Part shown: positions 764 through 37,990 of the stretch, in pieces | Layout of the letters: each line of letters begins with the position of its first letter | How positions within the stretch are numbered: the stretch's first letter is position 1 | UHGV virus genome: UHGV-0390443 | Source of the DNA: a virus | Reading direction: 5' to 3' (one strand) | Length of the DNA: 39,252 bases | Program-made: the position numbers and the translations under genes | Notes under the pieces: model-generated | Seen by the model: the letters and a program-made list of their open reading frames with translations, nothing else | What the model was told of the DNA's origin: nothing | Databases searched by the model: none

Positions 764-994
764 TCATGAGTAGAAGAAGTATGCCAGTTCTGCTTTTGAG
801 CGCAGCCATTGTCTTGTTTTACAGGCTTTAAAAAGCCCATTCATCAATACCTTACCTGGCATTTTGCGCTTACCTGTTAAGTGAGTCTGGATATAGTGAC
901 TCGTCGTTCCGGCTTCCTGTGCGAAGGCTTCACGCTCATCCGGAGTAAGTGCAAGCCAGTGCTTTTTGAAATCGAAATGTCCGTTATCGCTCAT
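764..994 (-). CDS. Cro-like HTH DNA-binding protein (first gene of minus-strand early operon)
   Basis: 76-aa ORF; HTH-like segment FAQEAGTTSHYIQTHLTGKR; divergent from repressor across operator-containing intergenic region. Confidence 0.6.
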   Translation of the reverse strand: MSDNGHFDFKKHWLALTPDEREAFAQEAGTTSHYIQTHLTGKRKMPGKVLMNGLFKACKTRQWLRSKAELAYFFYS

Positions 995-1061
995 AGCTAT
1001 TGCCTGATATTTATTTCAGATAATAAATATTCACCCATAAGGTAACAAAAATCAAGGATAG

Positions 1062-1093
1062 TTACCTATGGGGTGCATTTACCTGTTGGGTAA
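1062..1093. promoter_or_regulatory. Tandem operators in the switch region: TTACCTATGGGGTGC (1062..1076) and TTACCTGTTGGGTAA (1079..1093), centres 17 bp apart
   Basis: Dyad-symmetric sites between divergent genes 764..994(-) and 1149..1733(+); also flanked by GGTAAC...GTTACC inverted repeat 1041..1066. Confidence 0.6.
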
Positions 1094-1148: not shown

Positions 1149-1733
1149 ATGAAAAGTATCCAGGACGTCCGCAGGCAAAATCTCAACGACTTGATCGACC
1201 GTGAATTCAATGGTGTTCAGACGCGGATGGCAGAAAAACTTGGAACTCAGGCAAATCTGGTAAACCGCTGGGCTCTTGGCAAGAAGGTTATCGGCGACCA
1301 GGTTGCGCGAAAAATTGAAGCTGCCGCCAATAAACCCCGTAACTGGCTTGATATCGATCGCTCGCTTTCTCAGGAAGGTTTTCAGCCTGTCGGCCCAAGC
1401 GACATTGGTCAGCTGGCGGCTCACAACCTGGAACGCTGGATGAGCGAAAGCCGCGACCTTTCAACACAGGGAAAACTTCACCGCGCATCCGGCGTCGCCC
1501 AGGTGACAATCAGCCGCCTGTTAAACAATGAGGTCAGCGTTTCCATTTCCACCCTGGAGAATGTTGCATCCGCATTCGGGCGTCACGGCTATGAATTACT
1601 GATTCACCCGCACGACCCTGCGACCATCAACTATGACCGCTCGCGCTACGCATTGTTACCCGAAACCGAGAAAGCAAAGATCGAAAGTTACATTGAATTT
1701 GTCATCAACCAGAACGAAAAAAACAAACAATAA
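1149..1733 (+). CDS. Phage repressor-like regulator with two HTH modules (CII/XRE-like N-terminal HTH plus second HTH); no LexA-like peptidase domain evident
   Basis: 194-aa ORF; motifs QTRMAEKLGTQANLVNRWALGKK and LHRASGVAQVTISRLLNNEVSVSISTLENVASAFG; CI-like position (divergent from Cro-like gene, followed by terminator). Confidence 0.65.
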   Translation: MKSIQDVRRQNLNDLIDREFNGVQTRMAEKLGTQANLVNRWALGKKVIGDQVARKIEAAANKPRNWLDIDRSLSQEGFQPVGPSDIGQLAAHNLERWMSESRDLSTQGKLHRASGVAQVTISRLLNNEVSVSISTLENVASAFGRHGYELLIHPHDPATINYDRSRYALLPETEKAKIESYIEFVINQNEKNKQ

Positions 1734-11804: not shown

Positions 11805-11908
11805 GTTAAATCTCCAGATAGTCGCAGCACCCGTTGCGCCGCATATCTGGTTATTCTATTACCTGAAAAACCACATATGGATAGAAAGACTATAAATACC
11901 AATAGATA

Positions 11909-11923
11909 TTACCTTTCGGGTGA
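11909..11923. promoter_or_regulatory. Operator-like dyad TTACCTTTCGGGTGA (imperfect)
   Basis: Family consensus match; upstream of LexA box and small antirepressor-like gene. Confidence 0.4.
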
Positions 11924-11960
11924 TTTGCAAAACGTGCTGGATAGCAAACAAATTATTTGC

Positions 11961-11980
11961 TACTGTATAAATATACAGTT
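11961..11980. promoter_or_regulatory. LexA (SOS) box TACTGTATAAATATACAGTT
   Basis: CTGT-N8-ACAG with AT-rich spacer, near-perfect to E. coli consensus TACTGTATATATATACAGTA; 20 bp upstream of ATG 12001. Confidence 0.75.
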
Positions 11981-12000
11981 ATTGCATGGAGAAGATAAGA

Positions 12001-12257
12001 TGCAGCAGTATCACTATCCACTGGAAGACGGATTTACCGAAAGGATTCACACGCCGGGAGGCGTCAGATCACTGGTGGAGGGATCGCACTTGATGAAATT
12101 ACTCCGGGATCTCGATAAGGATGGATTTAATGTCGATGGCCCACTTGCCGAACTGACTGCACTGATTAACTACGTCACCAGCTCACAGATGTCTATGCAG
12201 GATCTGCAAACACATCTCGACTATTGTGCCGAACAATTACGAAAGCAAACCAGATAA
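12001..12257 (+). CDS. Small antirepressor-like protein (paralog of the C-terminal domain of the downstream Bro-N antirepressor), putatively SOS-induced
   Basis: 85 aa from ATG 12001 (RBS GGAGAAG); HTPGGVRSLVEGSHLMKLLRDLDKDGFNVDGPLAELTALINYV aligns with HSPSGVLGLTEHSLLMNLLNQLQEDGHDVSGAAAELTTMFCYI of 12571..13263; ORF-track start 11877 rejected because the LexA box lies inside it. Confidence 0.6.
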
Positions 12258-12289
12258 GGTTTGCAATTACCAAGTGGAGTGCTTATATT

Positions 12290-12304: not shown

Positions 12305-12570
12305 TTTACATCGCACTCCTCTTGTGCCATAGTAATCAGGCACTGGCAAAATCCAGTGCCGGGATTGGTCTCCCGGATTACTACAGAGGCACATATGCCG
12401 CATAAGCGGTTTTTTTATGTGTAAAGCGCACCTATTCTATGGTGGGCTGTGTGGGGGCACCGAAAGGTGCGCCGGGTTCCTTTGTAGCCGGTAAGACCAA
12501 CTCTGCACAGTTCACCACCATCTGATTGGTCTCAGCGGTGGTGATTAACCTAACTACAAAGGTGATCGCC

Positions 12571-13263
12571 ATGAATACCAAACCTTCCATCTTTTCCTTT
12601 GAGTCATCCTGCCAGATCCGTATGTTCATGATTGACGGAGAACCTTGGTTTGTCACCAAAGATGTGTGCAATGCTTTGAATATTGATGTTACACAAGCGA
12701 GAAAACTTGATAAAAAAGGCTGGAACAAAAAGGGGCTGTATTCAATACAGACCCCTGGTGGAATACAAGAACTATCCATCGTTTCAGAATCAGGTCTCTA
12801 CATCCTTATTCTGCGTTGCAAAGAGGCAATGACAGAGGGAACGAGAGCATTCAGATTTCTTGAATGGGTTACAGGTGAGGTTCTTCCTCAGATCCGCCGC
12901 ACCGGAAGTTACATTAAAAACTCGCTCCCGCAGGAAGAACGCATAAAGATGGTTGCCGACCAGGTAGCCAACGCCACGGCGTCAGCAGTAATGCAGGCGA
13001 TGAAGATAGAGAACAAAACCTACAGTGCCCCACTGAAGCCCGGCTACCGTAGCCTGATTCATTCGCCGTCTGGTGTTCTCGGCCTGACGGAGCACTCACT
13101 GCTGATGAATCTGCTGAACCAGTTACAGGAAGACGGGCATGATGTATCAGGCGCGGCGGCGGAGCTGACCACCATGTTCTGCTACATCGTCGGTGTGAGC
13201 AAATGCCTGCGTGATATCCAGACGCACGCGGAGTACATCAACGACAAGGCTGGGTTCTTCTGA
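12571..13263 (+). CDS. Antirepressor with Bro-N N-terminal domain and Ant/KilA-C-like C-terminal domain
   Basis: ATG 12571 with RBS AAAGGTGA; Bro-N signature SIFSFESSCQIRMFMIDGEPWFVTKDVCNALNI. Confidence 0.75.
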   Translation: MNTKPSIFSFESSCQIRMFMIDGEPWFVTKDVCNALNIDVTQARKLDKKGWNKKGLYSIQTPGGIQELSIVSESGLYILILRCKEAMTEGTRAFRFLEWVTGEVLPQIRRTGSYIKNSLPQEERIKMVADQVANATASAVMQAMKIENKTYSAPLKPGYRSLIHSPSGVLGLTEHSLLMNLLNQLQEDGHDVSGAAAELTTMFCYIVGVSKCLRDIQTHAEYINDKAGFF

Positions 13264-13329
13264 CGGGCGGCGGCACAGGGATGTGCCTTTAAAATAATCA
13301 TTGGCGATGTGATGTAGATTCGCGTAATA

Positions 13330-13344
13330 TTACCTTAAAGGTAA
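13330..13344. promoter_or_regulatory. Operator TTACCTTAAAGGTAA overlapping a putative promoter (-10-like TAATAT 13325..13330)
   Basis: Perfect dyad 27 bp upstream of ATG 13371. Confidence 0.55.
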
Positions 13345-13370
13345 ACCATGTGTTTACATGAGGAGGAGAT

Positions 13371-13580
13371 ATGGGATTTTGGTTCGCTCGTACAAAAACG
13401 AGGGATAATGCACCCAGCCCTCAGGCAAAAAATGCAGAAGTTCCGGCGTCAGCGCAGGTTAACAAGCGTGGTGGAGTATATATCTCATCACAGCAAATTT
13501 CTGAGCTTCCTGAGGTTAAGGAGATGCGTCGTCTCGCTGCTGCAATTGTTAAACAGGATCTTGCCACTGTAAGGAAGTAG
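13371..13580 (+). CDS. Small soluble hypothetical protein (69 aa), first gene of a two-gene moron operon
   Basis: ORF with strong RBS GAGGAGGAG; stop overlaps start region of the membrane protein gene. Confidence 0.55.
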   Translation: MGFWFARTKTRDNAPSPQAKNAEVPASAQVNKRGGVYISSQQISELPEVKEMRRLAAAIVKQDLATVRK

Positions 13581-14446
13581 TGTTGCTAGCTCTTCTAATT
13601 ATCCCAATCCTGGTTAGCGGTTATATTATGATAACCGCTAACCAGTATCATTATTTCCGTTTATACCGACACGAAGGCCAGCTTCTTTATATGAAAGTAG
13701 CGGCACTAGGTACATATTGCCTTGTTGCATCAGTAATAATTGCAGCCGCTATAAAATATAAATGGCCTGATTTTCACCTAGTTCACGATATGGTGGAAAC
13801 TTTTAATGTAACATCAAAACCAGAAACAGATAGAATTTACATGTGGCTGCTTCTTCTCTCAGCCACATCCATTTGCTTCTCTTTGTGTTATGTGTCTGTT
13901 GTGTGGGTGAAAGATTTTCTTCTTGGTTGTTTTTATAAACGTGATATTTACGAGCAAAAAACAGAGGCAATGAAGGCCAGAGTACTGCGAAAAACTTACT
14001 CGCAAGGTTCTTTAGACTTACTATTGCTTGATGCTATTGAATCGGATCCTAAACGACCAATGCTGATTACTTTATCATCAAACAAAGTGTATGTTGGAAT
14101 AATAAATGGTTCTGGTGAACCAACGGAAAATCAGGGTCCGCATCAGCACATATCTTTTGTTCCTTTAATGTCAGGATACAGGAACAAAGAAAACTTATCT
14201 GTCACATTCACTAATGCTTATCCAGGAGAAATACAGGTCAAGCGGACTGCAGCAATAAGAGGAATTAGCAGAAAGAAAGTGCCAGGACTTGAGATCATGG
14301 TGTCTATTGACGAAATAAGTTATATATCATGGTTTGATTTTGAAGTATATAAAGCAACAAATAACAAAGTAGAATCCAGGGGGCACGTTATTCGTGTTAC
14401 CAAAAATGGAAGAAATATATATCAAAGAAATAGCAAAAAAGAATAG
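13580..14446 (+). CDS. Membrane protein with about 3 N-terminal TM helices and a ~170-aa C-terminal soluble domain; function unknown
   Basis: 288-aa ORF, low GC; hydrophobic segments LLALLIIPILVSGYIMITA, VAALGTYCLVASVIIAAAI, IYMWLLLLSATSICFSLCYVSVVWV; start (GTG 13580 or TTG 13583) uncertain. Confidence 0.55.
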   Translation: MLLALLIIPILVSGYIMITANQYHYFRLYRHEGQLLYMKVAALGTYCLVASVIIAAAIKYKWPDFHLVHDMVETFNVTSKPETDRIYMWLLLLSATSICFSLCYVSVVWVKDFLLGCFYKRDIYEQKTEAMKARVLRKTYSQGSLDLLLLDAIESDPKRPMLITLSSNKVYVGIINGSGEPTENQGPHQHISFVPLMSGYRNKENLSVTFTNAYPGEIQVKRTAAIRGISRKKVPGLEIMVSIDEISYISWFDFEVYKATNNKVESRGHVIRVTKNGRNIYQRNSKKE

Positions 14447-14447
14447 C

Positions 14448-14472
14448 CCGCGCCGCGGGCTTTTTTGTGTCT
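14448..14472 (+). terminator. Rho-independent terminator after membrane protein gene
   Basis: GCCCGCG-CC-GCGGGC followed by TTTTTTGT. Confidence 0.75.
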
Positions 14473-14544: not shown

Positions 14545-14994
14545 CTACTTGCGAAATCTTTCTTTACCCTTCCAGCCAGTAGATGTTAGTTCAGGATGAA
14601 TGGTTCCCAATATAAAGCCAACCATAGCGGAGCGAGGATCTTCTATTTTATCCGTTAATTCTTCGGCATAACTCACAGGCAACCAAGCAACAAGATCACC
14701 AATCCTCAGCTTTGGTCCTTTGCTGTAAGATGAATCGGCAATAACAAAAAATCCACCATCAGCTGAGCACACCTTCAGCATTGCCCTTTGTCTTCCAGAA
14801 TCCAGCAAAACTGGCTGTTCCCCACTGGGACCAGGTATGATGATGGCTGGCATTGGTTTATTGGCTGAAAGGCTTGTGTCAAGATACTTACACGCATACT
14901 CAAAAGCTGAAAAGTTATCCTTAAAGATAAGAGGTTGAATTTTATTGCTAACCTCCTTACCACCGATTAATCTGTTGATCATCTTCTTGAACAT
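14545..14994 (-). CDS. Hypothetical cytoplasmic protein (about 149 aa)
   Basis: ORF track 14545..15003; ATG 14994 preferred (RBS AGGTGA, spacing 5). Confidence 0.5.
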   Translation of the reverse strand: MFKKMINRLIGGKEVSNKIQPLIFKDNFSAFEYACKYLDTSLSANKPMPAIIIPGPSGEQPVLLDSGRQRAMLKVCSADGGFFVIADSSYSKGPKLRIGDLVAWLPVSYAEELTDKIEDPRSAMVGFILGTIHPELTSTGWKGKERFRK

Positions 14995-15006
14995 AAAGGT
15001 CACCTA

Positions 15007-15447
15007 ATGATTAAGCCGATGCACGCTATTACAGCTACCGTTTTGTTTATCCTACCAATTTTTTCGTTTGCAAACGACATATGTTTTAAGAATTTAATAA
15101 ATGAGGATATGTGTGCACATGCAAACAAAATTGCATCAGAAGCAGGAAAGTCACTTCCCATAAAATTGAATGATAATATGTCTATTGTTTCAATAAATGC
15201 AATACTAAACAAACTTTTAGTTGTAGCGCATCTTAATTACAACAACAGCTATTTATCAAAAGTTTATAATGGTGATGTAACCTTAGAAAATAAATTAAAG
15301 AGTGTAATGCGAAATTATTCAAAATCGAGCATTTGCTCCAACAGGCAAATAAAAGCATTTATTCACCTTGGCGGAGAGATTGAGTATAGGTATGTATTTA
15401 GTGATGGCAATATATTTGATACATACGCCATCACTAATTGTGAATAG
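15007..15447 (+). CDS. Hypothetical secreted protein with N-terminal signal peptide (about 146 aa, 4 Cys in mature part)
   Basis: MIKPMHAITATVLFILPIFSFA then NDICF...; very AT-rich codon usage; abuts the internal virion protein gene. Confidence 0.5.
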   Translation: MIKPMHAITATVLFILPIFSFANDICFKNLINEDMCAHANKIASEAGKSLPIKLNDNMSIVSINAILNKLLVVAHLNYNNSYLSKVYNGDVTLENKLKSVMRNYSKSSICSNRQIKAFIHLGGEIEYRYVFSDGNIFDTYAITNCE

Positions 15448-33443: not shown

Positions 33444-34036
33444 TGATTGCCATCCTGACGTTCTTTCAGTCTCTTCCTGGCTGCCGCTATGCGATCAGCA
33501 ATTGTCACATTCACATTAACATCCAGGCGTTCTTTGAATGCGTTGACGTCGACGTGCTTACCAATCAGTTCGAGGTTCTTCACCTTGTCAGGCCATTTAA
33601 TTTTTTTGAGGATTGTCTCTATCGAATCCTCGTTCATGTTCATGATGGTCGATGACAGATCAAAGCCACTAAGCGTAGTGCGCCAGATTTTCGGCCACTC
33701 ACGGATTGGTTTAAGGCTCCCATCGTCGTTGAGGATATCGATCACGTCCATCTGGTCGATCTCCACCAGGCGCATGAGAACGTAATCAGCACTGACGCGC
33801 ATTCGTTTGTTGCGCTCCTCCATCAACTCGGCAATCCGTTTTTGAATGCGTTCATCGCGCATCATGACACTGGCTTTAACTGCCGCTGTATTTGGGGAGA
33901 ATCCTGCGTTAATCGCTGCCTGAGTCTGGTTTTCAGGCGTTTTGATGTATGACTGGCAATAAGCCTCCTGCATTGCTGTGAGCGGCTTAAATTGCGTTGA
34001 TTTGCGTTTATAGGTTTTAGGTTCAGCAGGCATCAT
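33440..34036 (-). CDS. Terminase small subunit
   Basis: ORF track 33440..34114; start at MMPAEPKTYKRK (34036) preferred because a minus-strand terminator hairpin lies at 34078..34105 and the conserved LTAMQEAYCQSY region begins ~19 aa later. Confidence 0.7.
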   Translation of the reverse strand: MMPAEPKTYKRKSTQFKPLTAMQEAYCQSYIKTPENQTQAAINAGFSPNTAAVKASVMMRDERIQKRIAELMEERNKRMRVSADYVLMRLVEIDQMDVIDILNDDGSLKPIREWPKIWRTTLSGFDLSSTIMNMNEDSIETILKKIKWPDKVKNLELIGKHVDVNAFKERLDVNVNVTIADRIAAARKRLKERQDGNQ

Positions 34037-34077
34037 AACCACCGTGGTAATAGTTACCGTTGTGGTAATAGTACCAT

Positions 34078-37913: not shown

Positions 37914-37990
37914 TTACCTCTGAGGTAATTAAAAACCACATAAGACACGAAATCAATAGATTTTAGAATATTTTATTACCTAACAGGTAA
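37914..37990. promoter_or_regulatory. Two operators TTACCTCTGAGGTAA (37914..37928, overlapping the RBS of 37566..37910) and TTACCTAACAGGTAA (37976..37990)
   Basis: Perfect dyads in the P-like/DUF1064 intergenic region. Confidence 0.55.

What the first reader, a model, noticed from the sequence alone, without database searches (positions are those of the whole stretch)
13300..14472. Operator-controlled two-gene moron operon: 69-aa soluble protein plus 288-aa membrane protein of unknown function
Low-GC cassette with its own operator-overlapped promoter (13325..13344), strong RBS, translational coupling and a clean terminator (14448..14472). The 288-aa product has about three N-terminal TM helices and a ~170-aa cytoplasmic or periplasmic domain with no motif I recognise. 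It occupies the slot between the antirepressor and the virion internal proteins, where related phages carry lysogenic-conversion or exclusion genes. This is the best candidate in the window for an undescribed superinfection-exclusion, abortive-infection or host-modifying system.
Basis: inference. Interest (0 to 1): 0.75.

Follow-up and report, generated by a model that had tools for sequence, protein, structure and literature searches.

The report
Uncharacterised phage membrane Sm-like gene pair
A real, widely conserved two-gene cassette (a small soluble protein plus an inner-membrane protein with an Sm-like domain) sits in a swappable cargo slot of this E. coli prophage; it is a credible but untested candidate anti-phage or toxin-antitoxin-like module.

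Summary
ORF69 (13371-13580) and ORF288 (13580/13583-14446) are a translationally coupled, low-GC pair, with an operator-overlapped promoter upstream and a clean terminator downstream.

Four things are new.
1. The pair is a conserved module. About 35 distinct loci keep a small upstream partner with a shared motif, and the large protein's family has at least 2,355 clusters at 50% identity. No Pfam, NCBIfam or PADLOC model matches either protein.
2. The large protein is predicted (AF2 pLDDT 89.6) to have three TM helices and a C-terminal Sm/LSm-like domain, probably cytoplasmic.
3. The same pair fills the P2 defence hotspot. It is listed without any function as "system 57" in Rousset et al. 2022, Table S5B. 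It also fills the int-attP slot of phiES15, and in a Klebsiella phage it lies next to bSEFIR.
4. The promoter and operator belong to the slot, not to the cargo. Sibling prophages carry a YafO toxin-antitoxin pair or other cargo behind the same promoter.

The operator is the phage's immunity operator (9 exact copies in the window against 0.03 expected). The cassette is therefore probably repressed in stable lysogens, which is unlike a classical moron.

A covarying hairpin lies in the first 25 codons of the membrane-protein gene.

My best reading is a membrane effector with a small inhibitor or partner, acting by abortive infection or as a toxin-antitoxin-like pair. Function is inferred, not shown.

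The parts
13301..13330 (+). Sigma-70-like promoter of the slot: TTGGCG, 18-nt spacer, TAATAT
   Evidence: Read from the sequence and from the geometry analysis. It scores 8 of 12 against consensus. The last T of the -10 is the first base of the operator, as at the promoters at 1825-1853 and 12261-12289. The region is conserved in HEMP4 and in L071 upstream of different cargo.
13330..13344 (.). Operator: the perfect palindrome TTACCTTAAAGGTAA, a member of the phage's immunity-operator family
   Evidence: There are 9 exact TTACC-N5-GGTAA sites in the window against 0.03 expected. Three sites (one exact, one with 1 and one with 2 mismatches) lie between the divergent cro-like gene (764-994, minus strand) and the cI-like double-HTH gene (1149-1733, plus strand).
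13361..13366 (+). Shine-Dalgarno sequence AGGAGG for ORF69
   Evidence: Read from the sequence.
13371..13580 (+). ORF69: a small soluble partner protein with a variable N-terminus and a conserved core (about residues 28-62, motif xVxxRGGVYISSxxIxxLPEVKEMxRxAxxIV)
   Evidence: It matches PHROG 5739. Positional homologues with an invariant Gly and the shared motif are present upstream of the large gene in about 35 distinct loci. A profile search found 91 proteins, none with a Pfam domain. A Pfam scan of the members found no significant or recurrent match.
13583..14446 (+). ORF288 (287 aa from TTG 13583, or 288 aa from GTG 13580): an inner-membrane protein with three TM helices and a C-terminal Sm/LSm-like beta-barrel domain at about residues 145-251
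   Evidence: ORF call. It matches PHROG 3630. The family has 2,355 representatives at E<=1e-3. The AF2 model has pLDDT 89.6 and pTM 0.79. The Foldseek PDB top 50 are nearly all Sm/LSm proteins, with probability about 1.0 and target TM-score up to 0.73. Hydropathy and charge analysis supports three TM segments.
13607..13648 (+). Conserved hairpin (15-18 bp stem, 6-nt loop, -24.7 kcal/mol) inside codons 10-23 of the membrane-protein gene, followed by the U-rich stretch UAUCAUUAUUU
   Evidence: It was found as an inverted repeat and as a terminator-like site. It is retained in most enterobacterial homologues (z from -3 to -7). Covariation: 7 of 15 pairs change on both sides, 26 such cells against 11.0 +/- 3.4 in shuffles (0 of 500 reach it), and the score is 0.263 against at most 0.100 when the pairing is slid.
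14445..14469 (.). Bidirectional intrinsic terminator and right end of the cargo
   Evidence: Terminator scan. Homology to sibling prophages with other cargo resumes at 14470 at 99.6% identity.
13357..14469 (+). Extent of the exchangeable cargo segment, set by breakpoints against sibling prophages
   Evidence: blastn of the window against L002, L070, L071 and L072.

Best explanation
The region is a self-contained two-gene accessory cassette inserted in a cargo slot of an epsilon15/phiV10-like E. coli prophage.

Shown here:
- A small soluble protein is translationally coupled to a polytopic membrane protein of about 287 aa.
- The two genes travel together across prophages (epsilon15-like, P2-like, lambdoid phiES15) and across chromosomes of distant bacteria.
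- The slot's promoter is overlapped by the phage's immunity operator.
- A covarying hairpin sits at the 5' end of the membrane-protein gene.

Inferred:
- The membrane protein lies N-out/C-in, with three TM helices.
- It oligomerises through its cytoplasmic Sm-like domain into a ring, as Sm/LSm/Hfq proteins and the MscS beta-domain do.
- This places 18-21 TM helices in the inner membrane, where they can perturb or permeabilise it.
- The small protein binds the cytoplasmic domain and keeps the effector inactive, or acts as its sensor.
- The 5' hairpin keeps effector synthesis below that of the partner.
- When the balance is upset by phage infection, the effector acts on the membrane and aborts infection or blocks genome entry.

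In short, I read it as a toxin-antitoxin-like abortive-infection module. In this phage it is wired to the immunity repressor, so it would be expressed mainly after derepression or infection rather than constitutively.
For: - Pair conservation: nearly every locus with upstream DNA has a 53-134-aa ORF ending within -1 to +32 nt of the large gene, with a shared motif. This holds in the further contexts examined.
- Defence-type locations: between gpA and portal in P2-like SEN5, in Klebsiella ST15-OXA48phi14.1 and in a 186-like prophage; between int and attP in phiES15; immediately next to bSEFIR (PADLOC E=6.9e-103); and listed as P2-hotspot system 57 with 75 occurrences.
- The same slot in sibling prophages carries a small gene plus a YafO-family type II toxin.
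- The gene order (small gene first), the coupling and the stand-alone copies among housekeeping genes are all typical of toxin-antitoxin modules.
- Structure: three TM helices plus an Sm-like domain.
- The hairpin shows compensatory changes.
- No match to structural or housekeeping families.
Against: - There is no functional data of any kind.
- Neither protein matches any of 5,027 PADLOC models.
- The family was absent from the DefensePredictor supplements and from the supplements of one metagenomic-selection study.
- The Sm assignment rests on Foldseek E-values of only 0.015-0.09.
- Oligomerisation, pore formation and small-protein binding are all inferred.
- Immunity-operator control implies that the genes are off in a stable lysogen. 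That is awkward for a system meant to protect lysogens.
- The U-tract after the hairpin is weak, so its role is unknown.
- Toxicity is not indicated by any disrupted alleles. The short RefSeq versions are start-codon annotation artefacts.
Confidence: 0.4

Rival explanations
1. It is a superinfection-exclusion protein. The membrane protein sits in the inner membrane and blocks the DNA-delivery conduit of incoming phages, as P22 SieA, T4 Imm or HK97 gp15 do. The small protein is an accessory factor, and no cell death is involved.
For: - It occupies the position between ant and the ejection/internal-protein genes, which mirrors sieA in P22.
- It has three TM helices with a cytoplasmic conserved region, as SieA does (for SieA; for this protein).
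- If expressed on derepression or infection, it could exclude competitors during lytic growth, as T4 Imm does.
Against: - It is not homologous to SieA (hhalign probability 0.5%).
- It has no Pfam match, including to the Sie/Imm families in the library.
- Known Sie proteins are single genes specific for relatives of the carrier phage. This pair occurs in unrelated phage types and as stand-alone chromosomal copies in Brachymonas, Turneriella and other bacteria.
- A conserved, coupled small partner and a 5' attenuating hairpin fit a toxic effector better.
Confidence: 0.2
2. It is a selfish addiction or toxin-antitoxin module with no anti-phage role. It persists because losing it kills or slows the cell, and it hitch-hikes in phage cargo slots.
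For: - It has toxin-antitoxin-like architecture, and a YafO toxin-antitoxin pair is an alternative cargo of the same slot.
- Stand-alone copies lie among housekeeping genes.
- Copies in Arsenophonus endosymbionts are decayed, as happens with mobile toxin-antitoxin modules.
Against: - The repeated occupancy of the P2 hotspot and the adjacency to bSEFIR match the pattern of validated defence systems.
- Many toxin-antitoxin modules in such hotspots do defend against phage.
- Under repressor control, an addiction function for the prophage is not obvious.
Confidence: 0.15
3. It serves the phage's own lytic programme and is switched on with the early genes when the repressor is removed. Possible roles are membrane remodelling, control of lysis timing, counter-defence, or blocking host or satellite interference.
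For: - The best operator in the window overlaps its promoter, with the same geometry as the early promoters.
- There is no terminator between ant and the cassette, so it may also be co-transcribed with the antirepressor.
Against: - The cargo is dispensable and is replaced by unrelated genes in close siblings.
- The phage has a complete lysis cassette elsewhere.
- In P2-like phages and phiES15 the pair sits where lysogen-expressed genes sit.
- Stand-alone chromosomal copies have no phage to serve.
Confidence: 0.15
4. The ORFs are decaying or non-functional passengers.
For: Every copy is annotated as hypothetical. The start codon is non-ATG and is often mis-called.
Against: - The protein is conserved across phyla with invariant residues.
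- The partner gene co-occurs throughout.
- The AF2 model is high-confidence.
- The reading frames are intact in dozens of E. coli genomes at 98-99.9% identity.
Confidence: 0.03

Closest known systems
P2-hotspot 'system 57' (and distant 'system 43') of Rousset et al. 2022, Cell Host Microbe (PMC9122126, Table S5B)
   Same: It is the same protein family and the same two-gene make-up. System 57 protein 1 is 37% identical to ORF288 (E=3e-55). Its protein 2 is a small partner with the same VVGRG...KLM...A..IV core. System 43 aligns to the family profile at 99.7% probability.
   Different: The published entry is only a catalogue row: no Pfam, "2 TM in protein 1", and no notes. The family's motifs were not found in the tested-systems table, Table S2. 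Here the pair sits in a different phage type (epsilon15-like), in a different slot, under immunity-operator control.
Type II toxin-antitoxin / abortive-infection pairs with a membrane effector (lambda RexAB; mycobacteriophage Butters gp30/gp31; TM effectors of CBASS, Pycsar and Panoptes such as S-2TMbeta)
   Same: A two-gene or partnered membrane effector carried by prophages. The small gene comes first and overlaps the large one. The TM helices are followed by a beta-rich cytoplasmic domain. It sits in defence hotspots. The sibling slot holds a YafO toxin-antitoxin pair.
   Different: There is no sequence match to any Pfam or PADLOC model at E<=1; the named families were not queried individually. 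In RexAB the soluble protein is the large one. No nucleotide-signalling enzyme is associated. The comparison with these systems comes from my own knowledge of them, not from a test.
P22 SieA superinfection exclusion protein
   Same: It occupies the equivalent genome position, between the ejection/internal-protein genes and the immI/ant-tailspike region. It is an inner-membrane protein with three predicted TM helices.
   Different: There is no homology (hhalign probability 0.5%). SieA is 162-164 aa, a single gene, and has no Sm-like domain or partner.
Sm/LSm/Hfq superfamily (and the Sm-like beta-domain of MscS channels)
   Same: The C-terminal domain has an N-terminal helix followed by five bent strands. 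Nearly all of the top 50 Foldseek PDB hits are Sm/LSm proteins. Such domains normally form hexameric or heptameric rings.
   Different: There is no sequence-level match to any Pfam model, which includes LSM, Hfq and MS_channel, and no MscS chain in the top 50 structural hits. The domain is fused to three TM helices. It has a disordered insert of about 25 aa at 214-238. Ring formation and RNA or ligand binding are untested.

Membership tests
Rousset 2022 P2-hotspot system 57 family (uncharacterised) | Large protein homologous to system 57 protein 1 | tested here: met
   BLASTP gives 37% identity over 275 aligned columns, E=3e-55.
Rousset 2022 P2-hotspot system 57 family (uncharacterised) | Adjacent small partner gene of the same family | tested here: met
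   The motif is shared in alignment A4. The L052-type partner is nearly identical to system 57 protein 2.
Rousset 2022 P2-hotspot system 57 family (uncharacterised) | Location in the P2 gpA-portal hotspot | tested here: not met
   Here the pair is in an epsilon15-like prophage, between ant and the internal-protein genes. Relatives are in the P2 hotspot.
Known anti-phage defence systems (PADLOC-DB v2.0.0) | Match to any defence-protein HMM | tested here: not met
   Neither protein matched any family at E<=1.
Known anti-phage defence systems | Protection against phage on expression | not testable with these tools
   This needs cloning and a phage challenge.
Type II toxin-antitoxin module | Two small adjacent, co-transcribed, overlapping or coupled genes | tested here: met
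   The stop of ORF69 (13578-13580) overlaps or abuts the start at 13580 or 13583. In homologous loci the gap is -1 to +32 nt.
Type II toxin-antitoxin module | Toxicity of one product, neutralised by direct binding of the other | not testable with these tools
   No multimer prediction or experiment was available.
Type II toxin-antitoxin module | Antitoxin with a recognisable DNA-binding fold (RHH, HTH, AbrB and similar) | tested here: not met
   A Pfam scan of 20 small partners gave no recurrent or significant family.
P22 SieA family | Sequence homology, including the FxRYPxEAxxFNK motif | tested here: not met
   hhalign probability 0.5%. The motif, as described in PMC10883804, is absent.
Sm/LSm fold superfamily | N-terminal helix plus a five-stranded bent beta-sheet | tested here: met
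   AF2 places a helix at 145-154 and strands at 161-165, 169-178, 190-201, 208-213 and 239-251. The Foldseek hits have probability about 1.0 and target TM-score 0.5-0.73.
Sm/LSm fold superfamily | Sequence signature (Sm1/Sm2 motifs; Pfam LSM or Hfq) | tested here: not met
   No Pfam hit at E<=1, and no hit to PDB sequences.
Sm/LSm fold superfamily | Hexameric or heptameric ring; RNA or ligand binding | not testable with these tools
   Only monomer prediction was available.
MscS-like channels | MS_channel domains, with a pore-lining TM3 followed by an Sm-like beta-domain and an alpha/beta domain | tested here: not met
Moron (lysogen-expressed accessory gene with its own promoter and terminator) | Own promoter, carried with the cargo | tested here: not met
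   The promoter and operator are conserved upstream of different cargo in HEMP4 and L071.
Moron (lysogen-expressed accessory gene with its own promoter and terminator) | Atypical base composition, own terminator, dispensable in relatives | tested here: met
   GC is 0.397 against 0.484 for the window. The terminator at 14445-14469 lies inside the cargo. Siblings lack the cargo.
Moron (lysogen-expressed accessory gene with its own promoter and terminator) | Expression from the repressed prophage | tested here: inconclusive
   A consensus immunity operator overlaps the -10/+1 region, which predicts repression. There are no expression data.

The most novel reading that the evidence does not exclude
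The family is a previously unrecognised class of prokaryotic immune or toxin effector. It would be a membrane-anchored Sm/LSm ring whose cytoplasmic face senses a nucleic acid or peptide ligand and gates a multi-helix pore. Candidate ligands are the small partner, incoming phage nucleic acid, or its own hairpin-plus-U-rich mRNA, in the way Hfq binds terminator hairpins. The partner protein and a conserved intragenic RNA hairpin would set the trigger threshold.
Probability: 0.2. Interest if true: 0.8.

Novelty: new variant of a known kind. Interest (0 to 1): 0.6.

Why it matters
The family is large: at least 2,355 clusters at 50% identity. It spans Proteobacteria, with members in spirochaete and Acidobacteria genomes, and it recurs in the best-validated phage defence hotspot. 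Despite this it has no Pfam, NCBIfam or PADLOC model and no assigned function.

If it defends against phage, it would add a new effector architecture, a transmembrane protein with an Sm-like ring plus a small partner, to bacterial immunity. It would also explain 75 or more "unknown" P2 hotspot loci.

The window gives a compact 1.1-kb unit that can be cloned directly. It also shows two regulatory features that can be tested at once: control by the immunity operator, and a covarying hairpin inside the coding sequence.

Finally, it shows that this epsilon15-like slot is a cargo-exchange site with a fixed, repressor-controlled promoter. That is a different logic from constitutively expressed morons.

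Tried and rejected
- SieA homology. Rejected.
- Small partner as a half AbrB/MazE-like antitoxin.
- C-terminal tail of ORF288 (VIRVTKNGRNIY) mimicking the partner's hairpin motif. The partner HMM hits only these tails among the large proteins, but at E of about 5-7, which is not significant.
- Fusion proteins joining the partner and the effector (a Rosetta-stone test). None was found among the 220 proteins fetched.
- Truncated 251-aa and 272-aa alleles as signs of counter-selection. They are start-codon annotation artefacts, and the DNA is intact.
- Literature. There was no hit for the family's motifs in the supplements of DefensePredictor or of a metagenomic-selection study. The domain-centric discovery paper had no supplement held. 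The 2026 P2/P4 paper reports tests of candidate systems from P4 satellites. Brenes and Laub 2025 could not be read, so a description there cannot be excluded.
- BFVD fold search. It returned only uncharacterised viral proteins with Sm-like domains.
Full report
**Setting**

The window is essentially a whole temperate podophage genome of the epsilon15/phiV10 type. A near-identical prophage lies next to yfgI in E. coli NZ_OZ040490. It has a Bbp16-type cement protein, a gp10 staple, a T7 gp14-like core protein, a 1129-aa internal protein, a tail fibre and a lysis cassette. The finding lies on the plus strand, among minus-strand late genes. Upstream are the tailspike gene, an Ant-C-terminal-like small ORF, and then isrK (12340-12416), C4 antisense RNA (12435-12522) and a Bro-N antirepressor (12526-13263).

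**Checking the observation**

All described elements are present.
- ORF69 runs 13371-13580 from an ATG, preceded by AGGAGG.
- ORF288 runs 13580-14446. Homologues start MLALLIIP, and AGGAAG lies 5 nt before TTG 13583, so that codon is the likelier start. The stop of ORF69 overlaps or abuts it.
- A GC-rich stem at 14445-14461 followed by a T-run is a bidirectional terminator.
- GC falls to 0.37 in ORF288, against 0.484 for the window.
- The palindrome TTACCTTAAAGGTAA at 13330-13344 is real.

The palindrome is part of a regulon.
- TTACC-N5-GGTAA occurs 9 times exactly, against 0.03 expected.
- Three sites (one exact, two with 1-2 mismatches) lie between a divergent cro-like gene (764-994, minus strand) and a 194-aa double-HTH repressor gene (1149-1733). 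That repressor has no peptidase domain.
- Further sites overlap the early promoters and the ant promoter.
- At 1853, 12289 and 13330, and by eye at 37928 on the minus strand, the last T of the -10 hexamer is the first T of the operator.
- The promoter here (TTGGCG, 18 nt, TAATAT) is weak by consensus, at 8 of 12. Its conserved geometry makes it credible.

**The promoter belongs to the slot, not to the cargo**

- Phage HEMP4 has the same ant 3' end and intergenic region up to 13345 (94% identity). A different small-plus-large ORF pair follows.
- E. coli prophages L071 and L072 match up to 13356. They then carry a 108-aa gene overlapping a YafO-family type II toxin.
- APEC O1 carries a 210-aa unknown protein.
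- All of them rejoin the window at 14470, at 96-99.6% identity.
- The ant 3' end is found in 469 of 5,426 E. coli genomes. The cassette is found in 96 genomes, and 28 of these cover at least 80% of it at megablast stringency.

This is therefore a cargo-exchange slot with a fixed, repressor-controlled promoter. No terminator separates ant from the slot, so read-through from the ant promoter is also possible.

**The proteins**

Neither protein matches Pfam, NCBIfam, PADLOC or any PDB sequence. PHROGs places them in families 5739 and 3630, both of unknown function.

The large protein has only 28 close relatives by word-indexed search. A profile search of 1.84 billion representatives finds 2,355 at E<=1e-3, 920 at E<=1e-10 and 125 at E<=1e-30.

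With a 93-sequence alignment, AF2 gives pLDDT 89.6 and pTM 0.79.
- Helices at 2-20, 34-61 and 81-117 coincide with the three hydrophobic segments.
- Two short helices follow.
- The C-terminal part is a helix plus a five-strand unit (145-251) with a disordered insert at 219-230.
- Foldseek against the PDB returns almost only Sm/LSm proteins in the top 50, with probability about 1.0, target TM-score 0.5-0.73 and E of 0.015-0.09. This held for both models.
- BFVD gives only uncharacterised Sm-like viral proteins.

The charge distribution suggests N-out/C-in, with the Sm-like domain in the cytoplasm. This is an inference: loop 1 has 3 positive and 1 negative residues, loop 2 has 4 and 5, and the C-terminal part has a net charge of +9.

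Invariant residues cluster in two places. One is TM1 and loop 1 (G14, G33, Q34, Y37). The other is the Sm-like domain (K169, Y171, S198, G199, R201, Y214).

**The pair is a conserved module**

I fetched 12 genome loci and 39 viral loci, plus further contigs. In nearly every locus with upstream DNA, a 53-134-aa ORF ends within -1 to +32 nt of the large gene.

These partners are very divergent, but they align on one core: a hydrophobic strand, an invariant Gly (xVxxRGxxxI), and then a helix (LPEVKEMQRxAxxIV). This holds even in Brachymonas and Turneriella. A profile search finds 91 such proteins. None has a Pfam domain, and some carry a spurious "ABC transporter ATPase" name.

**Where the pair lives**

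- In P2-like phages, between replication gene A and the portal gene. This is the position of old/tin and the hotspot of Rousset et al. 2022. It is seen in Salmonella SEN4 and SEN5, in Klebsiella ST15-OXA48phi14.1 and in a 186-like prophage.
- In the Klebsiella phage, a 69-aa ORF and then bSEFIR, a known defence gene, follow directly downstream (PADLOC E=6.9e-103).
- In Cronobacter phiES15, between int and attP.
- In Rousset's Table S5B, the pair is "system 57". It has 75 occurrences, no Pfam, a Phobius signal-peptide call for protein 1, "2 TM in protein 1" and no note. The family's motifs did not appear in the table of tested systems.
- System 57 protein 1 is 37% identical to ORF288. The single-gene "system 43", with 93 occurrences, is a distant relative.
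- In distant bacteria the pair stands alone among housekeeping genes.
- In Arsenophonus endosymbionts it is decayed.

**An RNA element inside the gene**

The terminator scan flagged a 15-bp stem at 13610-13645, inside codons 10-23 of ORF288. The hairpin is retained in most enterobacterial homologues, down to about 37% protein identity, including the P2-hotspot versions (z from -3 to -7).

Evidence for covariation, on a codon-anchored alignment:
- 7 of 15 pairs change on both sides.
- There are 26 such cells, against 11.0 +/- 3.4 in shuffles; 0 of 500 shuffles reach that number.
- The covariation score is 0.263, against at most 0.100 when the partners are slid, including by +/-3, which keeps the codon phase.
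- Example: in the P2 type, the synonymous changes GTT to GTG and AGC to AGT compensate for Ala-Asn becoming Thr-His on the other arm.

The tail UAUCAUUAUUU is only moderately U-rich. Possible roles are an attenuator, a processing site or a brake on translation. The hairpin is absent from the most distant homologues.

**Mechanism**

Shown:
- the anatomy of the cassette;
- the co-inheritance of the two genes;
- the mobility of the cargo;
- the operator regulon;
- the hairpin covariation;
- the predicted fold.

Inferred:
- Sm-like domains normally form 6-7-mer rings. The protein would then be a ring under the membrane holding 18-21 TM helices.
- The gene order (small first), the coupling, the fast-evolving partner, a YafO toxin-antitoxin pair as alternative cargo and the hotspot locations all fit an effector held in check by a small partner. 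That is a toxin-antitoxin-like or abortive-infection reading.
- Exclusion at the membrane is the main rival. The position mirrors P22 sieA, but there is no homology. The stand-alone chromosomal copies and the conserved partner fit exclusion less well.
- The consensus immunity operator predicts that in this phage the cassette is silent in a stable lysogen and expressed on infection or derepression. In P2-like phages and phiES15, the position suggests expression from the lysogen. Regulation therefore appears to be set by the slot.

**Verdict**

The feature is real and ordinary in layout, but the family is large, mobile and wholly uncharacterised, with an unusual predicted architecture. It is catalogued without function in one published supplement. 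I rate it a good experimental candidate rather than a discovery.

Noticed in passing
window 1031-1093, 1791-1867, 6875, 11909, 12289, 13330, 30891, 34036-34068, 37914-37990: A 15-bp palindromic operator family (consensus TTACCTnnnAGGTAA) has 9 exact copies against 0.03 expected. The copies are scattered over the genome at promoters, in the manner of P1 C1 operators or mycobacteriophage stoperators. The likely binder is a 194-aa protein with two HTH domains and no peptidase domain (1149-1733). Induction presumably goes through the antirepressor.
   Followed up: partly
window 12340-12416 and 12435-12522: Rfam finds isrK (74.7 bits) and C4 antisense RNA (78.6 bits) in tandem between an operator-controlled promoter (12261-12289) and the ant gene. 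This is a P1-immI-like RNA control module for the antirepressor.
   Followed up: partly
window 13607-13648: A covarying hairpin lies inside the first 25 codons of the membrane-protein gene. It is conserved across prophage types, and synonymous changes compensate for amino-acid changes on the other arm. Its function is unknown.
   Followed up: yes
L071 3838-4663, L072 3843-4668, L070 3860-4492, L002 4058-4686: The slot downstream of ant carries alternative cargo in sibling prophages. These are a 108-aa gene plus a YafO-family toxin, a 210-aa unknown protein (APEC O1), and an unknown small-plus-large pair (HEMP4). In L071 and HEMP4 the cargo sits behind the same promoter and operator; in APEC O1 homology to the window ends at 13298, upstream of the promoter.
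   Followed up: partly
window 11877-12257: This small ORF (probably 91 aa, from an internal start) duplicates the C-terminal domain of Ant (PHROG 450, E=1e-47). It has its own operator-type site at 11909.
   Followed up: no
window 14545-15003 (minus strand) and 15007-15447 (plus strand): Two more low-GC genes of unknown function (GC 0.37; PHROGs 9944 and 8772) lie between the cassette and the internal-protein gene. The second has a signal-peptide-like N-terminus. Both are conserved in sibling prophages, so they are backbone rather than cargo.
   Followed up: no
L001 20329-21147; L074 670-1425: RefSeq annotates the membrane protein as 272 or 251 aa from internal ATGs, which cuts off the most conserved transmembrane helix. 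In some genomes ORF69 is not annotated at all. The DNA is intact.
   Followed up: yes
L004 4856-6495: In Klebsiella phage ST15-OXA48phi14.1 the pair is followed by a 69-aa ORF and a bSEFIR defence gene in the P2 hotspot. I did not examine whether these act together with the pair.
   Followed up: no
window 14381-14420 (ORF288 residues about 268-281): The C-terminal tail VIRVTKNGRNIY of the E. coli-clade proteins resembles the partner's conserved xRVxxRGxxYI hairpin. The partner HMM hits only this tail among the large proteins, but not significantly (E of about 5-7).
   Followed up: partly
L011, L013, L015: Copies in Arsenophonus endosymbiont genomes are fragmented (matches split, with ORFs of 126-139 aa). 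This is consistent with decay of a mobile module in reduced genomes.
   Followed up: no
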